Positions 2,274 to 35,321 of a stretch of 37,616 bases of DNA are shown here, piece after piece; positions within the stretch are counted from its first letter, which is position 1; each line of letters opens with the position of its first letter. The position numbers were made by a program, and so were the translations under genes. This DNA comes from a virus. The stretch lies in UHGV virus genome UHGV-0218797. One strand, given 5' to 3'. Under the pieces are notes generated by a model. It worked only from the letters and a program-made list of their open reading frames with translations. It did not search any database and was not told where the DNA came from.

Positions 2274-4571
2274 TTAGAGAGGTATGTTAATGTCCACAAA
2301 ATCTGCCGTTTCTTCGGTTTCAATACAGTTGCGGGATATCGCATCCAGACCATAGAAAACCGGATTAACATTTCCGGGATGGTAATAGGTGTACTCTCCG
2401 GTTCCCGCATAAACGGAAACATCGCCAGCCGTATTATTCACCACATCAGCCACCCATTGAGAAACGCCAACCCCGGTTTCAAAATTGCTGACCCCCCGGC
2501 ATGTGGCAATTTGATACAAATTATACCCCTGACCTCCGGTGAGCATGAGCCAGAGCGCGCCCGTATCCTCATACTTGGCAATATTGGCTGCAGATTTCTG
2601 CTGGTAAATAACCTTGGCAATCGTCCACGGAACAGGCTCATTCTGACTGGCTGGGATGAAGCTGGTGGTGGTTTTCACCTGCCAGCCAGCCGCGGCTGTC
2701 AGCGCGTAAATCTCACGCACCTTTATTATATAACCGTTGCGCTGTGTGTCCCTGACATTGTCAAAAGTAATATCCAGAATTTCACCGTGATTGTAAGCCA
2801 AACCGTTTGCCGGGATAATACTGTAAGAATCTATGGAAAGGTCGGGACGAATCGTCTTCCCGCCGCGTCCGATACCAAAGGACAACTTTGCGGCATTGGT
2901 AGCGCGCCAAAGGAAAGAGAACCCGGCGAAACTGGAATAATTCCATTGAGGATTACTCACCTCAAATCTCGCCTGAATGGTCGAATGAGTACCCTTGGGA
3001 ACCTTAATACCAGCCAAATGGTAGGGAACTGTTTTGGCGACTGTCGAAGATCCTGACGCGGTAATGGCATCCGTATTGAGGAAAGCATTAGAGGTTAGGA
3101 TGCCCGTCACGCCGGCCATGCCCGCGGCATACAGACGGTTGACCGCCCCCGTATCGGTCGCCGCTCCCACGGCCAGCGGAATGTTCACCCCTCCGTTGGC
3201 GTTAATAGCCCCGGCCGCCGTCAGACCTCCGGCCAGCGTCATGTTGCCGGAGGCGTCCACTTGAGGCATGGCCGCCAGGGCGTTAGCCGCCGCCGTCGCG
3301 GAGTTGGCCGCGCTGGTGGCAGAGGTTGCGGCATTATCGGCAGCCGTGGCCGCGGCAGCGGCGGACTGGCCAGCCGTCTGCGCCGCAGCCTCGGCGGTCG
3401 CGGAAGATTGGCGCACATCCCGTCCCAGGCTATCCAGTTGCCGCGCGGTGGCCAGCTCCATCCCTCCCAGGGTGATGCCGTCGTCATAGTCCACTACTAC
3501 GGTCATCAGCGGGGCCATCGTGCCGTTCACGGTGGGCGGGTTGGTCACCTCCGTCACCAGGCCGCGCCCAGGGACGGACGGAGTAAGCACGGCGTGCATG
3601 CCCAGCGCGTAGGGCGTCATCTCGGTCCCTTCGCATACCTGGATAATGATCTTGTCCCCGCGTTGCAACGTAACGCCCGGCGTAAATACCCACGTGGCCG
3701 TCTGGCCGCTGGAAAGGTTGGACACATAGGCGGAGGTGCCAATCAGGCTGTAAGCGCCGTCCGTCAGCCGCCAAATCCGCAGGCAATATTGATTAGCGGC
3801 CGGGGTTTCAAAAAAATACACGGTGGAAATGCTTCTCAGGCGGCAGCTGTCGGGCAGATGCCCCGCCAGAATCTCGTCTCCCCAAGTGAACGCGTAGCCT
3901 CCGACGATGGTCCAGGTGTCGGCGGCATCTCCACTGGACAAGGTGGATTGCCCGGTCACCGCTTCCAATTCCACGCCCGCATCCTTGAGCGCGGCCGGCA
4001 ATTTATTTGCTACAGCCTCATTGACCAATTCCCCGCTTTCCACCTGTTCTTCCAGCGTTTCCACAAGCCGCGTTGCTTCATCCCGGGCCGCTTCGGCCTG
4101 TCGTACAAGTTCCTCGACCACAATGGACGGGTTTTCCACAATGGTTACGGAGCCGTCTTCCGTTTCGGGGATGGAGACATCAAGAGCGCCGGCCACGGCC
4201 GCGGCCTCATTCGTTCCATCCGGAGGCGTAACGCGGGACACTACATGCACGGATCCCTTCAACAAGGGGTATTCTTTTCCCGATGCGTCGGTCAGAAAAA
4301 TATCATATGCGCCGCATCCGGCGGCCAGCCTCGGCCATGTCACCAATGCCGTACTCACCCCCGTAACGGCACAGTCCAGCATGATCACCCCATCCTGTAC
4401 CACCGCGCCGCGTAGCGTCATGCCGCTGATGTCCATATCCTCACCGGAAGGAGAAATAAAATGCAGCGCAAGAGACTGCGGCAGGGATTCCGTGGCGTGT
4501 ACGTTGTAGTTGGCAGCTTGCCTCATGCACGCATTATCGCCCCAACGTGAGGGAGGGTACAACAATGTCAA
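2274..4571 (-). CDS. Tail fibre or receptor-binding protein, 765 aa.
   Basis: Long Ala/Thr/Ser-rich low-complexity stretch (AAAQTAGQSAAAAATAADNAATSATSAANSATAAANALAAM) and a Gly-rich beta-type C-terminal region typical of fibres. TTG start embedded in the GTCAAAATGGGCTACG motif. Confidence 0.55.
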   Translation of the reverse strand: MTLLYPPSRWGDNACMRQAANYNVHATESLPQSLALHFISPSGEDMDISGMTLRGAVVQDGVIMLDCAVTGVSTALVTWPRLAAGCGAYDIFLTDASGKEYPLLKGSVHVVSRVTPPDGTNEAAAVAGALDVSIPETEDGSVTIVENPSIVVEELVRQAEAARDEATRLVETLEEQVESGELVNEAVANKLPAALKDAGVELEAVTGQSTLSSGDAADTWTIVGGYAFTWGDEILAGHLPDSCRLRSISTVYFFETPAANQYCLRIWRLTDGAYSLIGTSAYVSNLSSGQTATWVFTPGVTLQRGDKIIIQVCEGTEMTPYALGMHAVLTPSVPGRGLVTEVTNPPTVNGTMAPLMTVVVDYDDGITLGGMELATARQLDSLGRDVRQSSATAEAAAQTAGQSAAAAATAADNAATSATSAANSATAAANALAAMPQVDASGNMTLAGGLTAAGAINANGGVNIPLAVGAATDTGAVNRLYAAGMAGVTGILTSNAFLNTDAITASGSSTVAKTVPYHLAGIKVPKGTHSTIQARFEVSNPQWNYSSFAGFSFLWRATNAAKLSFGIGRGGKTIRPDLSIDSYSIIPANGLAYNHGEILDITFDNVRDTQRNGYIIKVREIYALTAAAGWQVKTTTSFIPASQNEPVPWTIAKVIYQQKSAANIAKYEDTGALWLMLTGGQGYNLYQIATCRGVSNFETGVGVSQWVADVVNNTAGDVSVYAGTGEYTYYHPGNVNPVFYGLDAISRNCIETEETADFVDINIPL

Positions 4572-6901: not shown

Positions 6902-8497
6902 TTATTGTATCAATTCACAGTCAATGATCAATTTCCCGTTCTGATTATGGAATTGGAGAAATTTGAGGGTTCCTCCCTTCTGGATGATGATTTCATCTTC
7001 ACTGCTAAAATAGGTTTGCGGGCTAAGGCCGTCCCAGTCCTTACCGGCCCCTGCCCCGAATCTGGAAAAGGGCTCTGCATAAATGGCACGGGTTTTCTTC
7101 TTCAGGAGAATTCTGAACAACACGGGACGGTTCATGAATCCTTTCCCCTCCGCTACGGCAGCAGACATGAAACCTTCGTCTTTGAGAGGGTTTCCCACTA
7201 CGGAGAGATTGAGCATATCAACCAGCTCGTCTGTTATTTCTTCTCCTTTCCAGTTCAAAGCGTCTTTCAATTCCTTGTAAACCCCACAGCCACGGAAAAC
7301 AACCATGTCTTGAGGCACTTTGCATCTGTCAATGACTTTGGCGATCTGTTTCGCCTTGGCGTTGGACTTCCCCTTCCTCAAATCGTTGTTGATGCGGGCA
7401 TATCCATTTCCGGTGTAGGAAAACAAAGCGTTCTTTTCCAGTCTGGATGCCTTTGCCCACACTTCCCCGGTAACGCTTCGCAAAAGGTCATCAGCTTCCT
7501 TATCCGTCAACGGGGCAGGCATCTTCACCTTGGGGACATCTCCCAGGCTGACCGTGTGCGTGACGGCTGAGACTGGCGCAGGAATGGGAGCAGAGGGAAC
7601 CTTGATGACTTTCTCCGCCGTTTCCCTGGCCTTTTTCGCCACTTCCTGTGAGGGAAAGACAACCTCATCAGATTTGTCCTGTTTGACTCCCCAGCGGTCT
7701 TCATAGACCTTTTTCAATTTGGCCTTCAGTTCCTCCGGCAACTTCGCCGTACTGGCCTTCTTGCCGTACCCGTACCGTTCAATCAGGTCAATCCCGAAGC
7801 GCTCCGCACCCCTTGGACGCTTCAACGGCTCCCCGGGTTTGAGTAGTCCCAGCCGTTCGCATTCTTCCCGGGAAACAGGCTCCTGATCCATGTAGGAGTT
7901 GAAGCCGAACGGCGGCCAGGGGACCTCAAAGCCCCCGAGGCTGGCGGCGTTCATTTCGTCTGCCCAAAAAGTAAAGTCGGTTTTAAGCCGGACAGCATCT
8001 TCGTTGACGACATGAACAAGCCGCTTTGTCTTGGCTCCCGGAAAGCGGATGAACCGGAAAGCAGGCCATGCTTTGAGATTGGCTGGTTTCATGGATGCCT
8101 CCCATTGAGCAGCCCCAATGCTTTGCCGGACGTTGGTCTTGAAAATGAGCTTCAGACGGGCCAGAGCACCGATGTTTTTAATATCGTTGTGATACTTCGG
8201 GCCTTCGGCGTCCGGTGGAACAAGTCCCTCGGTTTGGAGCCATTGAAGTGCCTGGTTGGAAAAGTCCGCGGCGCTTCCTACCTTGATAACCGTTTCCCCA
8301 TTGGGTAAAGTCTCCTTTTCTCCTGTCAGATAATTCTTAATCAACCTGTGCAGCCGTTCCAGCAATCTGATATTCTCCACCTTGGAAGAGAAAAACTTGT
8401 TTTCCTTCATGGCAGCGTTCAGAGCAGCCCATTCCTTTGAATCCATGCCGGAGGGTGTGGGATGTTTTGCCAGGAATTTTTCCAGGGGTGTTACCAT
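6902..8497 (-). CDS. Head-morphogenesis-like protein (tentatively MuF/SPP1 gp7-like) fused to a C-terminal ADP-ribosyltransferase domain. Resembles a MuF-type polymorphic toxin.
   Basis: The C-terminus carries YTGNGYARINNDLR, then R in VVFRG, an STS-like GFMSAAV and an ExE-like SSEDEII. This is the R-S-E arrangement of C3/iota-like mono-ART domains. The N-terminal PP..F motif is weakly MuF-like. Confidence 0.6.
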   Translation of the reverse strand: MVTPLEKFLAKHPTPSGMDSKEWAALNAAMKENKFFSSKVENIRLLERLHRLIKNYLTGEKETLPNGETVIKVGSAADFSNQALQWLQTEGLVPPDAEGPKYHNDIKNIGALARLKLIFKTNVRQSIGAAQWEASMKPANLKAWPAFRFIRFPGAKTKRLVHVVNEDAVRLKTDFTFWADEMNAASLGGFEVPWPPFGFNSYMDQEPVSREECERLGLLKPGEPLKRPRGAERFGIDLIERYGYGKKASTAKLPEELKAKLKKVYEDRWGVKQDKSDEVVFPSQEVAKKARETAEKVIKVPSAPIPAPVSAVTHTVSLGDVPKVKMPAPLTDKEADDLLRSVTGEVWAKASRLEKNALFSYTGNGYARINNDLRKGKSNAKAKQIAKVIDRCKVPQDMVVFRGCGVYKELKDALNWKGEEITDELVDMLNLSVVGNPLKDEGFMSAAVAEGKGFMNRPVLFRILLKKKTRAIYAEPFSRFGAGAGKDWDGLSPQTYFSSEDEIIIQKGGTLKFLQFHNQNGKLIIDCELIQ

Positions 8498-17514: not shown

Positions 17515-19233
17515 ATGAGATACAAAAATTTCAAAATAAAAAATTATAAGGCTATTTCCAAAGAACTTACGATTGATCTTTCTCCACGTCTTATTCCATT
17601 AATCGGAATCAATGAATGCGGTAAAACAACAATTTTACAAGCAATTTTCTGCTTTGACGAAGAAAACGATGACCTTTATGAAGGAAGCCACATCAGCAAT
17701 CGTTTTAATCTATATGAACCATCAGACAATGGCCCCACGGAAATAACTGCTGTTATTGAATGCACAAGGGAAGAACTTGATCTTGTGTATGAAGAAATGA
17801 AAGCTGACAGTGGATTAGAAATACAAGATGATTTCGTGGAAACAGACGGACAAATCACAATAACGAGAATACTTAACGGTAAATCTCACTATATATCTTC
17901 ATTAAACTTTTATGAGCCGTCGGAAGAAGAAGAGAAGCCTTATGATGAAGAAATAACATCAAATATATGTTCCTGCATTATTCAGAATTGTCCTGCCATT
18001 ATTTATAGTGATGACTTCAATGATCGCCCTCCATCATTCATTGACTTTAAAAGTAATTCCCAGTCAGGAAACTTTGAATGGAAAGAAATATTCAAAAGAA
18101 TAGCGAAAGAAGCTGGAGTAGAAGAGCCATTCAACAATATCTTTGAGGTTGACGAGCGAAGACAACAAACCGTATTGTCAAGGATTGCATCCCATATCAA
18201 CCAAAGAATAACAGATGAATGGTTGAGATTCTCTGAAAACGCAAAAGACCTATTTAAAATTGAATTGAGAGTCAAAAATACACCAACTGAGCAGGGAATA
18301 AAAATTCAGATTAATGATAGAGTGCAAGATAACGATAACTATTTTGATCTGAGTGATAGGAGTAAGGGATTTATATGGCATTACAACTTCATCATGAAAA
18401 CCCTTTTCAATTCTAAACCCTTTAAACAAGAAAGGGAAACAATATTTCTCTTAGATGAACCCGGATCGTATTTACATGTATCCGTTCAGGCTCTTTTATG
18501 TAAAAAATTAAAAGAAATATCAGAAAAAGAAGGTGTTGTAATCTACAGTACACACTCAAGTTCACTGCTTGATATTAAATACATCCCTTCAAACAACATT
18601 TTAATTGTAGATAAGGAAAGCAATACGAGTGCCATCCAAGCCATTCCAATTACAAAGAAAAAAACAGCTACTAGAAAATCCGATCATTTACAACCACTCT
18701 ACGAAGCTCTCAGAATACCCCACATTCAAACATCTGAAATAAAAAATCATCCGATTATTTGTGTAGAGGGAATCAGCGATTTGTATGCAATAAAATCATT
18801 CTGTGACCTTCCTGAAAACGCAGTCGTGATACCTGGAGCCAATGCTGCATCAATCGTTGACACTATACAACACCTCATTGCTTGGGGAGCTAACTATGTT
18901 GCTCTGTGGGACAATGACCGTGAAGGAGAAAAAGAATATGAAAGAGCTAAAAAAACTTTTGGTGAAGGAGAATCGCATAAATTTCTGCTTCTACCTGCTC
19001 CCTCCAAAACGGAAGGCAAGAGAAGAATGGAAGAAATGTTCTCTTCCCAAACAATCTCTTCCTTGAAAGACCTACTCGGAATGGAAAAAGATACCAGTTA
19101 TGAGGCTCTAATAAGAACACTCCATTTCATTGACCAAGAAAAGAAATCCCTTATCATTAAAAAATCCTTGGATACTCAAACAAAAAAAATATTTTCACTC
19201 CTATCGAGAAACATCAAAGAGGCCTTTAAATAA
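17515..19233 (+). CDS. OLD-family ATP-dependent nuclease (ABC ATPase plus Toprim), class 1.
   Basis: Walker A GINECGKTT at the N-terminus. Toprim motifs CVEGISD (E-G-x-x-D) and WDNDRE (DxD). Size is 572 aa, similar to P2 Old. No helicase partner. AT-rich. Confidence 0.7.
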   Translation: MRYKNFKIKNYKAISKELTIDLSPRLIPLIGINECGKTTILQAIFCFDEENDDLYEGSHISNRFNLYEPSDNGPTEITAVIECTREELDLVYEEMKADSGLEIQDDFVETDGQITITRILNGKSHYISSLNFYEPSEEEEKPYDEEITSNICSCIIQNCPAIIYSDDFNDRPPSFIDFKSNSQSGNFEWKEIFKRIAKEAGVEEPFNNIFEVDERRQQTVLSRIASHINQRITDEWLRFSENAKDLFKIELRVKNTPTEQGIKIQINDRVQDNDNYFDLSDRSKGFIWHYNFIMKTLFNSKPFKQERETIFLLDEPGSYLHVSVQALLCKKLKEISEKEGVVIYSTHSSSLLDIKYIPSNNILIVDKESNTSAIQAIPITKKKTATRKSDHLQPLYEALRIPHIQTSEIKNHPIICVEGISDLYAIKSFCDLPENAVVIPGANAASIVDTIQHLIAWGANYVALWDNDREGEKEYERAKKTFGEGESHKFLLLPAPSKTEGKRRMEEMFSSQTISSLKDLLGMEKDTSYEALIRTLHFIDQEKKSLIIKKSLDTQTKKIFSLLSRNIKEAFK

Positions 19234-19426: not shown

Positions 19427-19717
19427 ATGAAACTATTCTCTCTCATTTTAGCTGTTATTTCCCTCACTTCATTCTCGGAGGCGCACCCTGGCGGCTTGGA
19501 CGCCAACGGCGGTCACTACAACCGCAAAACGGGGGAATACCACTACCACCGGAAACCAGCGACCAAAACAGCAGCGGAAGAAAAAACGTACTGGATCAGC
19601 TCAACGGGCAAGACCCATAACAAAAACTGCCGGTACTACCGGGCTTGCAAAGGGCGAGCCAGCGATACGCCCAGCGGTGTGAACTGCAAGATTTGTGGGG
19701 GATCGAAGAAACAATAA
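19427..19717 (+). CDS. Secreted YHYH-motif protein, 96 aa.
   Basis: Signal peptide MKLFSLILAVISLTSFSEA, followed by GGHYNRKTGEYHYH. Confidence 0.5.
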   Translation: MKLFSLILAVISLTSFSEAHPGGLDANGGHYNRKTGEYHYHRKPATKTAAEEKTYWISSTGKTHNKNCRYYRACKGRASDTPSGVNCKICGGSKKQ

Positions 19718-19752
19718 ATATTTATTTGAATAAGGAAAAATACAATAATATT

Positions 19753-20616
19753 ATGAAGATATACGTTTATACTGTTACAGAAGAAAATCATCTTCAACCA
19801 CTTAAAGACATTCTTCACTTGGTAAAAGAAGAATCCTTAATGGCCAGAAATCGTCCTTTTTTAGGAGATTTTATGCGACTCAATAATATAATATGGAATG
19901 AAGAAAAAAATCTATTTTTTATGGATTTTATTAGAGTAAGAATGAGTCACGGTCCCGCTATAGGGGGACTTCAACGGGAAATAGAGGGATTTAACTTCAA
20001 TGAGGATGAGGGTTTCTGTGAAGAGACAGCAGCTATTTATTCTCCTGAACATCACGTATGGGTTGATCAATATAATTTTGCTGGTATCAGAAGTAGTAAA
20101 ATGGCAAACTATCTTTCAGACTTTTATCCTAATCGTCATGCTACTTTCCGTTTTGAACCTATTTTAAATCATGACATTGAGCAAAAATTATTGAATAAAA
20201 CGCTTTTTACAAAAATCGATTTTAAAATGCGACCTCATGTCATTACTGAAGCAGATCGAGAAGAAAATATTTCTGTCCGAAGAGCAGTTGAAATGGCAGA
20301 AGAGAATGGTTCAGCTTATGTTAAAATCACCATAGGAGCAGAGAGATACCACAGTTTGGCGAATCGTGCTGCGTCTTCTCTAGCTCATTGGTTACTAAGA
20401 AAAAGTCAACAATCTGAATATGCTATTGATAGAGCATGTATTACTGGAAAAGATTCAGAACAAGATCCTTCAGAAACCCTAGATTTACTAAGAGCAAGAG
20501 AATATAAAGAATGCGAAATTACAACTGCCTCTGATAGACGCTTCCCACGTGATGACAGATGGAATGCGTTAGAACGATCATTCCATGAATGGAGACGAAA
20601 CGGATTATTCGAATGA
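19753..20616 (+). CDS. Unknown cytoplasmic 288-aa protein. Candidate sensor of a two-gene module (positionally RexA-like).
   Basis: Good AAGGA RBS. ATGA-coupled to the downstream 4-TM gene. No recognisable family. Contains a possible Rx6H (NRAASSLAH) motif. Confidence 0.5.
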   Translation: MKIYVYTVTEENHLQPLKDILHLVKEESLMARNRPFLGDFMRLNNIIWNEEKNLFFMDFIRVRMSHGPAIGGLQREIEGFNFNEDEGFCEETAAIYSPEHHVWVDQYNFAGIRSSKMANYLSDFYPNRHATFRFEPILNHDIEQKLLNKTLFTKIDFKMRPHVITEADREENISVRRAVEMAEENGSAYVKITIGAERYHSLANRAASSLAHWLLRKSQQSEYAIDRACITGKDSEQDPSETLDLLRAREYKECEITTASDRRFPRDDRWNALERSFHEWRRNGLFE

Positions 20617-21365: not shown

Positions 21366-22442
21366 CTAAAAAGTGAGTTTTCTAGCCGCTTCCTTACTGT
21401 GTTCGTCCCGAAGGTGTCCATATACCTTCATAGCCAATGCTCCGCCGTCACGATGCCCCAGCCATTTAGCCACCGTAGGAATATCAATGCCTGCCTCAAT
21501 GCAGGACGTGGCGAAGAAATGCCGTAAATCGTGAATCCGGACGTGAGGCAGTCCAAGCCTGATACACGCGTTTGTAAGGGCCTTTCGGGGGCTTTCTATG
21601 GCAAATACCGGGTCATCTGGGCTATTCCCCCGCCTTTCTCTTCGGAGGCTTTCTATCACCTCCGCCAGAGATGCGTTAATGTACAGGGTCCGGCGTGAGG
21701 TGGCATGTTTGATATCAGGCACGGAAATGGACTCTTTCCCGATATCTCCCCACACCAAGCGCCGGACTTCCTCAATACGTAACCCTGAATAAGCCAGGAA
21801 AGCGATCATATCCGCCGCTTCGGAATATAGCCCCTTCTTTTGCCACTTCCTTAATATAGGGGCTTTTTTCACTTCCTCAACGATTCTTCGGAAATCTTCT
21901 TTTTCCGGAACGTTAAGATTTGAACTCCTCAAAGTCATCCGTTCAAGCTTGGCTGCTGGATTGCTCTTGATACTTCCTGCTTCCTGAAGCATGGAAAAAA
22001 TATTTTTCACAACAGCGAGTGTTCCGTTTGCTGTTCGTGCAGACACAGACAACGCATCTTTTTTCCACCAAGCCCGGCACATTTGTTCCGTGATGGCCTC
22101 TGCTGCAATATCACGAGCAACAAGCTTTTTAGCGCGGCTGGAAAAGAACTTGATGGATTCTACAGCGGCCGGCTTCAAATGGGGGCGCATTTCCTGCCGC
22201 TGGACGTACATATCAACCGCCAAATACCAAGACACGGATTCCACGGGTAATTCATCCCTCCCTTGCTCCGCCAGGAACCCGGCCAGCCTGGAAAGGGCTT
22301 CCGTCAACACGCGCGTTTTAAGAGATTTTTTCACCGTTTTTCTTCCGGTATCAATTCGGGCATAGAAAATTTCCGACTCTTTTGACCGATACAAGTTCGG
22401 ATAATCCGTCGCAACAAGGGTGTTTTTCATACTTCCAAGCAT
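21366..22442 (-). CDS. int: Tyrosine-type site-specific integrase.
   Basis: C-terminal HDLRHFFAT...LGH...Y provides the catalytic H-x-x-R and Y. Lies adjacent to the tRNA-derived att core. Confidence 0.9.
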   Translation of the reverse strand: MLGSMKNTLVATDYPNLYRSKESEIFYARIDTGRKTVKKSLKTRVLTEALSRLAGFLAEQGRDELPVESVSWYLAVDMYVQRQEMRPHLKPAAVESIKFFSSRAKKLVARDIAAEAITEQMCRAWWKKDALSVSARTANGTLAVVKNIFSMLQEAGSIKSNPAAKLERMTLRSSNLNVPEKEDFRRIVEEVKKAPILRKWQKKGLYSEAADMIAFLAYSGLRIEEVRRLVWGDIGKESISVPDIKHATSRRTLYINASLAEVIESLRRERRGNSPDDPVFAIESPRKALTNACIRLGLPHVRIHDLRHFFATSCIEAGIDIPTVAKWLGHRDGGALAMKVYGHLRDEHSKEAARKLTF

Positions 22443-22479: not shown

Positions 22480-22503
22480 TACGGACAACCATACGGACAA
22501 CCA
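22480..22503 (+). repeat. Tandem arm-type repeat, TACGGACAACCA x2.
   Basis: Exact 12-bp tandem duplication about 60 bp from the att core on the integrase side. Confidence 0.6.
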
Positions 22504-22510
22504 ACACAAA

Positions 22511-22553
22511 GACAAAAGAAAAGAAAACCCCGCAAACCTTTCAGTTTACGGGG
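22511..22553 (-). terminator. Rho-independent terminator downstream of the tRNA-derived core, minus strand.
   Basis: 10-bp stem CCCCGCAAAC / GTTTACGGGG with one mismatch and a 6-nt loop. On the minus strand it is followed by TTTTCTTTTCTTTT. Confidence 0.55.
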
Positions 22554-22560
22554 TTTATAA

Positions 22561-22610
22561 TGGCACGTCCAACTGGATTCGAACCAGTGACCCACTGCTT
22601 AGAAGGCACT
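22561..22610 (-). other. 3' 50 nt of tRNA-Arg(UCU), from the anticodon arm to CCA. Interpreted as the att core.
   Basis: The reverse complement reads AGTGC-CTTCTAA-GCAGT (anticodon loop with U33, anticodon TCT, A37), then GGGTC, then the T-arm ACTGG-TTCGAAT-CCAGT, then TGGACGT-G-CCA. No D-arm or 5' acceptor strand is present upstream. Confidence 0.6.
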
Positions 22611-22743
22611 TACGGACGTTAAACTTATTTTAACTTTTCTAGCATTTTCAATGGGTTATTTAATCCTCCCCCCTTTCATAATTGTCCGCACTTATCCGTA
22701 TTTGACCCTATTTAACCCCTTATACGGACAACCTACGGACAAC
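22611..22743. repeat. Arm-type repeat cluster on the far side of the core.
   Basis: TACGGACGTT (22611-22620). Inverted copies TGCGGACAAT and TACGGATAAG (reverse complements of 22681-22690 and 22691-22700). Direct tandem TACGGACAACC and TACGGACAACT (22723-22743). Confidence 0.55.
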
Positions 22744-22870: not shown

Positions 22871-23401
22871 ATGGAACAGTATTACATTGCAACGGAGGAA
22901 GGACAGACGGAAGGGCCGTATTCCTTTGCATCACTAGAAACTTTCTACGCCGAAGGCAAGATAACACAAAAAAGCCTTGTTTGCATTGCTGGCGGTCAAG
23001 AGTGGGTGCAGTTTTGGACAATTTTAGAGCAAGAGCGGAAGAAAGAAGTTCAACCCTGTGAAGAACCTAAAAAACAAGCCTTGGAAAGACTGATGAATGA
23101 ATATGATCCCATTCCAAAGGAGCAGCCCAAGAAAGAGTTACAGAAGGATATTAAACCGTTGGAAATAACCGTTGAAGGCTTATTCCGTATTGCAGGTATT
23201 CTTGCTCTACTCGCTGGGGTTGTGCTGCTTTTTTCAACTGCAAAAGATCGGCAACCAGTCTTAGGCTTCATTTACCTACTTTCCGGAGCCTTCTCCTGCC
23301 TTGGATGCTTCTGGTGTGCCAAAGTCATTAAATTACTTTCTAATACCGTCGAGCTACTCACTACAATTTCCAAGAGAATGTATAATATTGACAAGGATTA
23401 A
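22871..23401 (+). CDS. DUF4339 (GYF-like) N-terminal domain protein with two C-terminal TM helices.
   Basis: YYIATEEGQTEGPYSFASLETFYAEGKITQKSLVCIAGGQEWVQF matches the DUF4339 pattern. Two hydrophobic helices follow. AT-rich. Confidence 0.55.
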   Translation: MEQYYIATEEGQTEGPYSFASLETFYAEGKITQKSLVCIAGGQEWVQFWTILEQERKKEVQPCEEPKKQALERLMNEYDPIPKEQPKKELQKDIKPLEITVEGLFRIAGILALLAGVVLLFSTAKDRQPVLGFIYLLSGAFSCLGCFWCAKVIKLLSNTVELLTTISKRMYNIDKD

Positions 23402-23622: not shown

Positions 23623-24369
23623 ATGAAAGAGATACTTACTATAGGAGAACAATTACTAAGAACAACTGTCTTAATTAATATTAAAAATAAAGATTCCTTA
23701 ACATCTGGAACAGGTTTTTTATTTTACTCTCATAAAAATATATTTTTGGTAACGAATAGACATGTTGTTGAAGATTCAAAAGAAATAGAATTGAAATTTT
23801 ATGGTCAAGATGATTTTCTTGTTATAAAAAATAATTTTATAACAAGTTTGCAGTATGATATAGCTATTTGTATATTGAACGATATTCCTTCCTCTGCAAA
23901 AACATTAACTCCAAATCAAATTCCAAATCGGAAGCAAGTGGAGAATTTTGATGCCATTGAAGATATTCTGTTCATTGGTTATCCTACAGGAATATACGAT
24001 ACATACAATAACTCCCCTATTGCACGAAAAGGTATAACTGCTACACCTATTTCGTTAAATTATGAGGGAAAGTATCAATTTCTCATTGATGCTTCCATCT
24101 TTCCAGGAAGTAGCGGAAGTCCTGTTTTTCTTATTAAATATTTAAAATCTACCAGCAAAAAAATTATACAAGTTTTTTTATTGGGCATTATAACTGAAGG
24201 ATATAGTTATGGAAATTCTATAAAAAACAGCTTTTCTCCTCCACCTATCCCTATCATAATATCTAAACAGATGATTAACCTTGGACTCGTCATTAAATCT
24301 AGTGAACTCATCAAGCTTATCAATGATAGTAGAAATCCCTACTCTGTTAGAAAGGTTGACTATCAATGA
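23623..24369 (+). CDS. Cytoplasmic trypsin-like (S1/Trypsin_2) serine protease.
   Basis: Catalytic triad context TNRHVV (His), YDIAIC (Asp) and PGSSGSPVF (Ser). No signal peptide. AT-rich. Confidence 0.65.
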   Translation: MKEILTIGEQLLRTTVLINIKNKDSLTSGTGFLFYSHKNIFLVTNRHVVEDSKEIELKFYGQDDFLVIKNNFITSLQYDIAICILNDIPSSAKTLTPNQIPNRKQVENFDAIEDILFIGYPTGIYDTYNNSPIARKGITATPISLNYEGKYQFLIDASIFPGSSGSPVFLIKYLKSTSKKIIQVFLLGIITEGYSYGNSIKNSFSPPPIPIIISKQMINLGLVIKSSELIKLINDSRNPYSVRKVDYQ

Positions 24370-34883: not shown

Positions 34884-35321
34884 ATGAAAATGATTTTTTT
34901 ATGGGCCACATGTTTAGTTGTCATAACCGGTTGCAATGCTCCTCAAGAGAATCATGATCAAATTGAAAACGGTGGAACAAAAATAGAAAACAAGTCGGAA
35001 AATTCTAATTTTTACGGCACTTATGAAGGAACTCTTCCCGCTGCCGATTGTGAAGGTATAAAGACGACACTGACATTAAATAAGGATAAAACTTATATAC
35101 TGAGGAGCGAATATATAGGAGAAGGAGAAAAAAGCGCAACTTTCGAATCAAAAGGTCATTATAATTTGATAAATGGAAACTTGATTGAATTATCTCTAAC
35201 CTCTTCTAATGAAAAATCTTATTATAAAATACTTGATGGTAGTAAATTAATGTTGTCAGACAAAGAAGGATCAATTAATCAAGGAATCTTATCCGAACAT
35301 TATATTTTAAAAAAGAAATAA
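34884..35321 (+). CDS. NlpE N-terminal-domain-like lipoprotein. A moron gene.
   Basis: Lipoprotein signal MKMIFLWATCLVVITGC. YGTYEGTLPAADCEGIKTTLTLNKDKTYIL matches the NlpE/CutF N-terminal domain pattern (YxGxLPCADCxGIxTxLxL). AT-rich and on the opposite strand. Confidence 0.6.
   Translation: MKMIFLWATCLVVITGCNAPQENHDQIENGGTKIENKSENSNFYGTYEGTLPAADCEGIKTTLTLNKDKTYILRSEYIGEGEKSATFESKGHYNLINGNLIELSLTSSNEKSYYKILDGSKLMLSDKEGSINQGILSEHYILKKK

What the first reader, a model, noticed from the sequence alone, without database searches (positions are those of the whole stretch)
22480..22743. att site with intact attP architecture: tRNA-Arg(UCU) 3' core flanked on both sides by TACGGACAAC arm-type repeats
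A 50-nt segment at 22561-22610 on the minus strand folds as the anticodon arm (anticodon UCU), variable loop, T-arm, 3' acceptor strand and CCA of a tRNA. It lacks the D-arm and 5' acceptor strand, so it is an att core and not a gene. Its own intrinsic terminator follows at 22511-22553. At least seven copies of a roughly 10-bp motif, TACGGACAAC, lie within about 130 bp on both sides: tandem direct copies at 22480-22503 and 22723-22743, inverted copies at 22681-22700, and a variant at 22611-22620. This is the classic arrangement of integrase arm-type binding sites around a core. Both flanks are phage DNA, with the integrase on one side and cargo plus tail genes on the other. That is the organisation of attP, not attL or attR. 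It implies the sequence represents an unintegrated, circularly permuted phage genome (or an excised or episomal form), or a tandem or unresolved arrangement.
Basis: seen in the sequence. Interest (0 to 1): 0.65.

Follow-up and report, generated by a model that had tools for sequence, protein, structure and literature searches.

The report
Intact phage attP at tRNA-Arg
This is the ordinary, intact attachment site (attP) of a circular temperate Akkermansia muciniphila phage, which inserts into the host tRNA-Arg(UCU) gene and rebuilds that gene with its own copy of the 3' half.

Summary
Window 22560-22608 (minus strand) is identical over 49 bp to positions 30-77 of the 77-nt Akkermansia tRNA-Arg(TCT) gene, plus one base beyond it. 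A phage-borne intrinsic terminator follows at 22511-22556. TACGGACAAC occurs four times perfectly, as tandem pairs at 22480/22492 and 22723/22734, and nowhere else in the window. Three degenerate copies lie in the arm away from the integrase.

A lysogenic Akkermansia MAG carries the two halves separately. In attL, the host tRNA 5' half joins the phage terminator, one repeat pair and int. In attR, the phage tail genes and the other repeats join the tRNA fragment and the host terminator. Other Akkermansia genomes show the empty attB.

The window's two ends are contiguous. The portal ORF reads through the join, and the 40-mer spanning it is internal in 18 IMG/VR contigs. The window is therefore one circularly permuted genome carrying attP. 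A second metagenome contig carries the same attP junction.

The adjacent integrase is a tyrosine recombinase whose predicted fold matches full-length lambda Int. Relatives with about 60% and 38% identical integrases keep repeat pairs at the same positions but with different motifs. This is a textbook lambda/L5-type attP: a new member of a known kind, of low interest.

The parts
22480..22743 (-). Complete attP (P arm - core - terminator - P' arm), about 264 bp
   Evidence: Equals the phage side of attR (L003, L051) joined to the phage side of attL (L008, L055-L062) at the common core.
22723..22743 (+). P-arm distal tandem pair of arm-type repeats, 2 x TACGGACAAC, 11-bp spacing
   Evidence: Perfect copies. 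Present in attR of lysogens. Relatives carry a pair of a different motif at the same distance from the int start codon.
22681..22700 (-). P-arm inverted pair of degenerate arm-type repeats (TGCGGACAAT, TACGGATAAG)
   Evidence: 2 mismatches each. They align with AACGGGCAAG / TACGGACAAC in the diverged P arm of L033.
22611..22620 (+). Core-proximal variant TACGGACGTT (heptamer TACGGAC); possible extra arm-type or core-flanking site
   Evidence: One of only 6 TACGGAC heptamers in the window, 5 of which lie in attP. Not conserved in L033, so the weakest of the seven.
22560..22608 (-). 49-bp common core, identical to attB: tRNA-Arg(UCU) gene positions 30-77 (anticodon stem 3 bp, loop, variable loop, T arm, acceptor 3' strand, CCA) plus 1 nt
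   Evidence: Exact identity with full tRNA-Arg(tct) genes of Akkermansia. No complete tRNA in the window.
22511..22556 (-). Phage-borne intrinsic terminator that serves the rebuilt tRNA gene in the lysogen (stem-loop 22525-22556, T-tract 22511-22524)
   Evidence: Follows the tRNA in all attL loci. Compensatory stem change in L004.
22480..22501 (+). P'-arm tandem pair of arm-type repeats, 2 x TACGGACAAC, 12-bp spacing, 38 bp upstream of the int start codon
   Evidence: Perfect copies. Identical in 9 attL loci. Replaced by GCCACACGTCA or TTGACCACCGC pairs in relatives.
21366..22442 (-). Tyrosine integrase, 358 aa, lambda-Int-like three-domain architecture
   Evidence: PF00589 at 1.8e-17 and phrog_1 at 6e-46. 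Conserved R222, H304, R307, H330 and Y341. AF2 model has pLDDT 85, and the top PDB matches are full-length lambda Int.

Best explanation
The 37.6-kb window is one complete, circularly permuted genome of a temperate Akkermansia muciniphila siphophage. It is a mosaic relative of phages Chantilly and Chambord. Positions 22480-22743 are its intact attP.

Likely mechanism:
- The adjacent tyrosine integrase (21366-22442, minus strand) is heterobivalent, like lambda Int.
- Its N-terminal domain is inferred to bind the TACGGACAAC arm repeats. These comprise a tandem pair in the P' arm, and a tandem pair, an inverted pair and possibly a core-proximal copy in the P arm.
- Its core-binding and catalytic domains act on the 49-bp core.
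- Recombination with the host tRNA-Arg(UCU) gene most likely crosses over in the 7-nt anticodon-loop segment flanked by the anticodon stem.
- Integration gives attL, in which the host 5' 29 nt of the tRNA join the phage-supplied 3' 48 nt, followed by the phage terminator, the P' repeats and int.
- It also gives attR, in which the tail and cargo genes and the P repeats join the displaced host tRNA 3' fragment and the host terminator.

Shown here: the core identity, the attB, attL and attR forms, the circular continuity and the integrase family.
Inferred: Int binding to the repeats, the crossover position, and the need for bending and excision factors.
For: - Relatives are A. muciniphila phages. 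Chantilly has the same gene order in prophage-linear form, with int at one end.
- Circularity: the portal ORF is continuous and in frame across the window end-to-start join, with the same length as the Chantilly portal there. The 40-mer spanning the join occurs internally in 18 IMG/VR contigs.
- attB: full tRNA-Arg(tct) plus host terminator in L005, L006, L007 and L009.
- Lysogen MAG Lapin-015: L008 is attL and L003 is attR. They are collinear with window 22611->21340 and 31374->22560 respectively.
- Eight more chromosomal attL loci lie downstream of plsX, a 7TM-HD gene and ybeY, all with an intact tRNA-Arg.
- A second, non-identical contig (L081, human gut) carries the same attP junction flanked by int and cargo.
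- Integrase: PF00589 with the catalytic residues present. The AF2 model has an N-terminal beta-sheet plus helix, then a linker, the core-binding helices and the catalytic domain. The best PDB hits are full-length lambda Int chains aligned over about 350 columns, against about 285 columns for the 75-356 constructs.
- Co-variation: integrases about 60% identical have GCCACACGTCA pairs, and one 38% identical has TTGACCACCGC pairs. The pairs sit at nearly the same distances from the int ATG: -301/-290 and -59/-47 in the window; -302/-291 and -69/-56 in L027; -307/-293 and -88/-75 in L049. They flank other tRNA-derived cores.
- The N-terminal and core-binding domains diverge most between these integrases: 41-54% identity against 72% for the catalytic domain.
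- Anticodon-centred attP with a 3' tDNA fragment is the commonest class of tDNA integration (PMC4383910).
Against: - No binding data exist. The repeats could in principle bind another protein.
- No excisionase (RDF) gene could be recognised.
- The crossover point cannot be placed inside 49 identical base pairs. The T loop is also a symmetric candidate.
- No Pfam arm-binding family reaches threshold on the N-terminus (DUF6538 at E = 0.006, below the cut-off).
- A unit-length window whose ends abut is also what a tandem or concatemeric template would give.
- The attP junction was not found in IMG/VR. It was found only once in the metagenome collection.
Confidence: 0.9

Rival explanations
1. The site is a junction between two prophages integrated in tandem at the same tRNA gene, or a collapsed assembly of such an array. 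It would then not be a free attP.
For: Tandem arrays at tDNAs are known: 125 of 3919 Islander islands (PMC4383910). One relative, L033, shows a junction whose two arms carry different repeat motifs, as a tandem of two different elements would. A unit-length window with abutting ends is compatible with a tandem repeat of one phage.
Against: Both arms of the window carry the same motif, matched to a single integrase. The window contains exactly one genome equivalent, with no host DNA and no complete tRNA. Sequence-wise, a homo-tandem junction is an attP anyway. An independent 7.7-kb contig shows the same junction.
Confidence: 0.06
2. The site is a simple attR or attL of an integrated prophage, and the DNA on one side is host chromosome.
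For: A partial tRNA next to an integrase is also what a prophage end looks like.
Against: The int side matches the phage side of attL and the other side matches the phage side of attR of the same lysogen. The host flanks (plsX-HD-ybeY upstream, host terminator downstream) are absent from the window. Both flanks encode phage or cargo genes.
Confidence: 0.01
3. The core is a real attP core, but the TACGGACAAC repeats are not integrase arm sites. They might be operators for a regulator of int, or binding sites for an excisionase or host factor.
For: The P' pair lies 38-60 bp upstream of the int start codon, where a promoter or operator could sit. No binding experiment exists. Tandem direct repeats about one helical turn apart also fit Xis-type proteins.
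Against: The same motif occurs on both sides of the core, about 230 bp apart. It changes together with the integrase lineage, while the layout is kept across three lineages. The integrase has the extra N-terminal domain that such sites require. Dual use (arm site plus int autoregulation) is not excluded.
Confidence: 0.08

Closest known systems
Bacteriophage lambda attP (P-O-P') with heterobivalent Int
   Same: About 250-bp site. A core identical to attB is flanked by several arm-type repeats of a sequence unrelated to the core, on both sides. int adjoins the P' arm. The integrase's predicted fold matches full-length lambda Int best. Integration gives attL and attR with the arms separated.
   Different: The core is 49 bp of a tRNA gene rather than 15 bp between gal and bio. 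Seven putative arm sites in a different arrangement (own knowledge: lambda has P1, P2, P'1-3). No xis found next to int. IHF, Xis and Fis sites not identified. Int is only about 16% identical in the structural alignment.
Mycobacteriophage L5 attP / tRNA-Gly, and other tRNA-targeting phages such as HP1 and P22 (own knowledge)
   Same: A tyrosine integrase recombines a phage core that duplicates the 3' part of a tRNA gene, so the gene is rebuilt. There are multiple arm-type sites in both arms, and attP lies next to int.
   Different: Different host phylum (Verrucomicrobiota), tRNA (Arg-UCU) and repeat motif. These comparisons are from memory and were not tested here.
Anticodon-centred ('A') class of tDNA integration sites (Williams 2002; Islander, PMC4383910)
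   Same: A 3' tDNA fragment is carried by the element. The identity block starts in the anticodon stem and runs to the 3' end. The integrase gene adjoins the regenerated tRNA, and the displaced fragment marks the far end.
   Different: None found. The crossover within the anticodon loop is inferred, not mapped.
Akkermansia phages Chantilly (ON453895) and Chambord (ON453894), induced prophages of A. muciniphila YL44 (PMC10197239)
   Same: 87-97% nucleotide identity over much of the structural, replication and recombination modules, with the same gene order.
   Different: Different int-att modules. The Chambord record ends in a different tRNA fragment and encodes an integrase of about 430 aa. 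Chantilly's int shares only 89 nt with the window. Those records are in prophage-linear form, whereas the window is in attP form.

Membership tests
Lambda-type (heterobivalent tyrosine integrase) attP | Adjacent tyrosine recombinase with the catalytic R..HxxR..H/W..Y residues | tested here: met
   PF00589 at 1.8e-17. R222, H304, R307, H330 and Y341 are invariant in 53 homologues.
Lambda-type (heterobivalent tyrosine integrase) attP | Integrase has an additional N-terminal arm-binding domain | tested here: met
   The AF2 model (pLDDT 85) has strands at 9-40, a helix at 46-62 and a flexible linker at 62-66 ahead of the core-binding domain. Best PDB matches are full-length lambda Int over 345-376 columns, against 281-287 for the 75-356 constructs. 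Caveat: this is a predicted fold only, and no Pfam arm-binding family passes threshold.
Lambda-type (heterobivalent tyrosine integrase) attP | Core sequence shared with attB | tested here: met
   49-bp identity with the Akkermansia tRNA-Arg(tct) gene.
Lambda-type (heterobivalent tyrosine integrase) attP | Repeated arm-type motif, unrelated to the core, on both sides of the core | tested here: met
   4 perfect and 3 degenerate TACGGACAAC copies, none elsewhere in the window. The motif co-varies with integrase lineage at conserved positions.
Lambda-type (heterobivalent tyrosine integrase) attP | attP x attB products (attL and attR, with the arms separated) exist in lysogens | tested here: met
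   L008 and L003 from one MAG. Further attL in L055-L062 and attR in L051.
Lambda-type (heterobivalent tyrosine integrase) attP | Integrase physically binds the arm repeats; accessory bending protein sites; a recombination directionality factor | not testable with these tools
   No RDF-like family was found among small ORFs. Binding needs EMSA or footprinting.
tDNA integration, anticodon-centred class A (Williams / Islander) | Element carries a 3' tDNA fragment whose identity block begins at the anticodon stem-loop and runs to the tRNA 3' end; int next to the regenerated tRNA | tested here: met
   Identity covers tRNA positions 30-77. Layout shown; class definition in PMC4383910.
tDNA integration, anticodon-centred class A (Williams / Islander) | Strand exchange within the anticodon-loop segment | not testable with these tools
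   attP and attB are identical across the whole 49 bp in every locus found, so no polymorphism maps the crossover.
Simple prophage end (attL or attR) | Host chromosomal DNA on one side of the tRNA fragment | tested here: not met
   Both sides are phage DNA. The host flanks seen in L003, L008 and L055-L062 are absent.
Circular or circularly permuted phage genome | Window ends are contiguous in other assemblies and no gene is broken by the join | tested here: met
   Portal ORF continuous across the join. The junction 40-mer is internal in 18 IMG/VR contigs.

The most novel reading that the evidence does not exclude
Akkermansia phage integrases of this clade share a fixed attP scaffold: tandem arm pairs about 230-240 bp apart, at set distances from the int ATG. 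Arm-motif specificity and tRNA target are swapped on this scaffold as separate modules. Relative L033 would then be a natural hybrid attP, with a window-type TACGGACAAC P arm, a tRNA-Pro(TGG)-like core, a GCCACACGTCA P' arm and the matching int. That would imply either relaxed arm requirements or an ongoing exchange of arm specificity, rather than a tandem-prophage junction.
Probability: 0.15. Interest if true: 0.4.

Novelty: new member of a known kind. Interest (0 to 1): 0.15.

Why it matters
The result precisely defines attP, attB, attL and attR for a very widespread A. muciniphila prophage. The exact integrase sequence is indexed in 2333 blocks of the assembly collection. This has three practical uses:
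- Drawing exact prophage boundaries in Akkermansia genomes.
- Designing PCR or read-based assays for excision and induction in gut samples.
- Possibly building a site-specific integration tool for a bacterium that is hard to engineer.

Conceptually it adds nothing new to site-specific recombination.

Tried and rejected
- ARAGORN on the window found no tRNA, as expected for a fragment.
- IMG/VR relatives with 92-100% identical integrase are provirus calls trimmed exactly at the int start codon. They carry no att region and could not be used for arm conservation.
- The IMG/VR scan for the tandem repeat pair gave 4 loci. Two (L052, L054) are unrelated chance or foreign matches. The other two are the P arm only, one as attR and one trimmed.
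- The attP-specific 70-mer is absent from IMG/VR and occurs once in the metagenome collection.
- The search for an excisionase (RDF) among ten small ORFs, and among the int-flanking ORFs, found nothing in Pfam or PHROGs.
- The sigma-70 promoter scan gave nothing meaningful between the terminator and int. Akkermansia promoters may not fit that consensus.
- The papers naming Chantilly and Chambord do not describe att sites.
- I considered whether Chambord or Chantilly share this att. They do not; their integrases and tRNA fragments differ.

Full report
**Observation**

ARAGORN finds no complete tRNA anywhere in the window. The reverse complement of 22560-22608 is AGTGC|CTTCTAA|GCAGT... through ...GGACGTGCCA.

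A collection-wide scan with 42 nt of it returned seven loci, all from Akkermansia. In six of them the match lies inside a complete 77-nt tRNA-Arg(tct) gene. In register, the identity between the window and the host gene is an unbroken 49 bp. It covers gene positions 30-77 plus one base beyond CCA, which is window 22608 down to 22560.

The terminator is real. It has a 14-pair stem-loop at 22525-22556 and a T-tract on the minus strand. A related attL carries a compensatory C-G to T-A change in the stem.

TACGGACAAC occurs four times perfectly, at 22480, 22492, 22723 and 22734, and nowhere else in 37.6 kb. Only one 1-mismatch copy lies elsewhere. The inverted copies at 22681-22700 have two mismatches each. 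The 22611 copy keeps only the heptamer TACGGAC, but five of the six such heptamers in the window lie in this 264-bp stretch.

**What the window is**

Megablast places the window among Akkermansia muciniphila temperate phages. Chantilly (complete) and Chambord (partial) are both induced prophages of strain YL44 (PMC10197239).

Chantilly's record is in prophage-linear order, with cargo and tail genes at one end and integrase at the other. The window has the same gene order but is circularly permuted, beginning and ending inside the portal gene.
- The minus-strand portal ORF reads in frame across the window end-to-start join (...DPESLKS|LKESIASGRL...), with the same spacing as the Chantilly portal.
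- The 40-mer made of the last 20 and first 20 bases occurs internally in 18 IMG/VR contigs.

PHROG, Pfam and record annotations give the following:
- Portal, protease, major head protein, tail genes and tape measure lie on one side of the site.
- Repressor, an Old-like ATPase, a DUF6731 protein and integrase lie on the other.
- Terminase, DnaB and the recombination genes lie further on.

No host DNA is present.

**Decisive test: attB, attL and attR**

- Loci L005, L006, L007 and L009 show an intact tRNA-Arg followed by a host terminator (CCATCTTTCAGAACCCCGTATTC...). This is the empty attB.
- In one MAG (Lapin-015 bin23), contig 2 (L008) has the host promoter region and a full tRNA-Arg. From the anticodon stem onward it is followed by the window's sequence: phage terminator, the two TTGTCCGTA repeats and int. 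It is 97.6% identical to window 22611->21340. This is attL.
- Contig 24 of the same MAG (L003) is collinear with window 31374->22560: tail genes, cargo, the P-arm repeats and the tRNA fragment. It then continues into the host terminator. This is attR.
- L051 is another attR.
- The exact integrase protein is indexed in 2333 blocks of the assembly collection. All eight long contigs shown, including complete genome CP029705.1, have it downstream of plsX, a 7TM-HD gene, ybeY and an intact tRNA-Arg(tct). Their attL is 100% identical to the window's P' arm.

The window therefore joins the phage half of attR to the phage half of attL at the core, which is the definition of attP.

A 70-mer that spans P arm, core and P' arm can only exist in attP. 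It is absent from IMG/VR. It is present in one human-gut metagenome contig, L081. L081 is a different strain (94-99% identity, one replaced segment) and runs from the repressor region through int and attP into the cargo gene.

**The integrase and the repeats**

The 358-aa protein next to the site is a tyrosine recombinase (PF00589, phrog_1). Arg, His-x-x-Arg, His and Tyr are conserved.

An AlphaFold2 model (pLDDT 85) has a four-stranded N-terminal sheet (residues 9-40) packed on a helix (46-62). A low-confidence linker, a helical core-binding domain and the catalytic domain follow. Its best PDB matches are the full-length lambda Int chains 1z1b, 1z1g and 5j0n, aligned over 345-376 columns. The N-terminally truncated lambda constructs align over about 285 columns. 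This supports, but does not prove, a lambda-like arm-binding domain.

The stronger argument is comparative.
- Relatives with about 60% identical integrases keep the same layout but carry GCCACACGTCA pairs. These flank tRNA-Pro-like cores or sit next to a tRNA-Thr(tgt) gene (the tRNA-Pro assignments are my own reading of the fragments).
- A 38% identical relative carries TTGACCACCGC pairs.
- The pairs sit at nearly fixed distances from the int start codon: window -301/-290 and -59/-47; L027 -302/-291 and -69/-56; L038 -303/-292 and -72/-60; L049 -307/-293 and -88/-75.
- Forms in the attL state keep only the int-proximal pair (L035-L037).
- Between the window-type and GCCACACGTCA-type integrases, the N-terminal 70 residues are 41-49% identical and the core-binding domain 50-54%. 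The catalytic domain is 66-74% identical.

A repeat that sits on both sides of the core, holds its position and changes sequence with the integrase is what arm-type sites should look like.

**Mechanism**

Shown here:
- the core identity;
- the three recombination states, attP, attB and attL/attR;
- the rebuilding of the tRNA gene from 29 host and 48 phage nucleotides, with a phage-supplied terminator.

Inferred:
- Int bridges arm and core sites to build an intasome.
- The crossover lies in the anticodon-loop segment. The identity block starts only 3 bp 5' of that loop and the anticodon stem supplies the inverted core-type half-sites. This is the common anticodon-centred class of tDNA sites (2083 of 3919 Islander islands; 3760 with 3' fragments; PMC4383910).
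- A host bending protein and an unidentified excisionase are needed. No RDF could be recognised.

**Rivals**

- A simple attL or attR is excluded.
- A tandem-prophage junction cannot be formally excluded from a unit-length sequence. However, both arms carry the same motif, no host DNA or full tRNA is present, and an independent contig shows the same junction.
- L033 shows what a mixed junction looks like: a TACGGACAAC-type P arm, with a GCCACACGTCA-type P' arm and int.
- A non-integrase role for the repeats is unlikely on the co-variation evidence. Dual use as an int operator is possible.

**Comparison and novelty**

This is a lambda/L5-style attP of the anticodon-centred tDNA class, in a Verrucomicrobiota phage. 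The relatives Chantilly and Chambord carry different int-att modules. The paper naming them does not describe att sites. This attP is therefore a new, fully ordinary member of a known kind. Its interest is low. Its value is practical: exact prophage boundaries, induction assays and a possible integration tool for Akkermansia.

Noticed in passing
L033 (IMGVR_UViG_3300029684_000029), locus 2150-2545: Hybrid att junction in a related phage. The tape-measure gene is followed by a P arm with window-type TACGGACAAC sites in the same layout as the window. Then come a tRNA-Pro(TGG)-like 3' fragment, a P' arm with GCCACACGTCA x2, and an integrase of the GCCACACGTCA type. It is either a tandem-prophage junction or a mosaic attP with mismatched arms.
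   Followed up: partly
window 17515-19233 (+) and 19645-20616 (+): Probable defence cargo on the int side of attP. One is an Old-like / AriA / GajA-like AAA_15 ATPase (PADLOC Old at 1e-23). The other is a DUF6731 protein. This segment is replaced in other lysogens and in L081.
   Followed up: partly
window 22871-23401 (+) and 23623-24369 (+): Cargo between attP and the tape-measure gene. One is a GYF_2-domain protein. The other is a trypsin-like peptidase that matches the candidate defence family PDC-S45 (4e-59). Defence-type morons therefore flank attP on both sides.
   Followed up: partly
window 34884-35321 (+): An NlpE N-terminal-domain lipoprotein gene (5e-25) sits on the opposite strand inside the head module, between the protease and portal genes. 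It is a likely moron.
   Followed up: no
window 6902-8497 (-): The protein matching the one annotated 'head morphogenesis' in Chantilly and Chambord has a C-terminal region matching ADP-ribosyltransferase toxin families (phrog_16625 at 3e-12, phrog_3895 at 2e-7).
   Followed up: no
L001 1-60 (Chambord ON453894, record end) and L082 187-1476: The Chambord record ends in a different tRNA 3' fragment (T arm CCGGTTCGAGTCCGG) and encodes a different integrase of about 430 aa. Closely related Akkermansia phages therefore exchange whole int-att modules.
   Followed up: partly
L004 2097-2200 (uncultured Akkermansia sp. attL): A related prophage in the same tRNA-Arg has a diverged P' arm with only one TTGTCCGTAG copy. 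Its terminator stem carries a compensatory C-G to T-A change.
   Followed up: no
L049 (IMGVR_UViG_3300028178_000005), about 2560-3000: A 38%-identical integrase has an attP whose core appears, by eye, to be the 5' half of a tRNA in the opposite orientation (...GCGCCTGTAGCTCAGAGGATAGAGCACCCGCC). It is flanked by TTGACCACCGC pairs. This would be the rarer 5'-fragment type of tDNA site.
   Followed up: no
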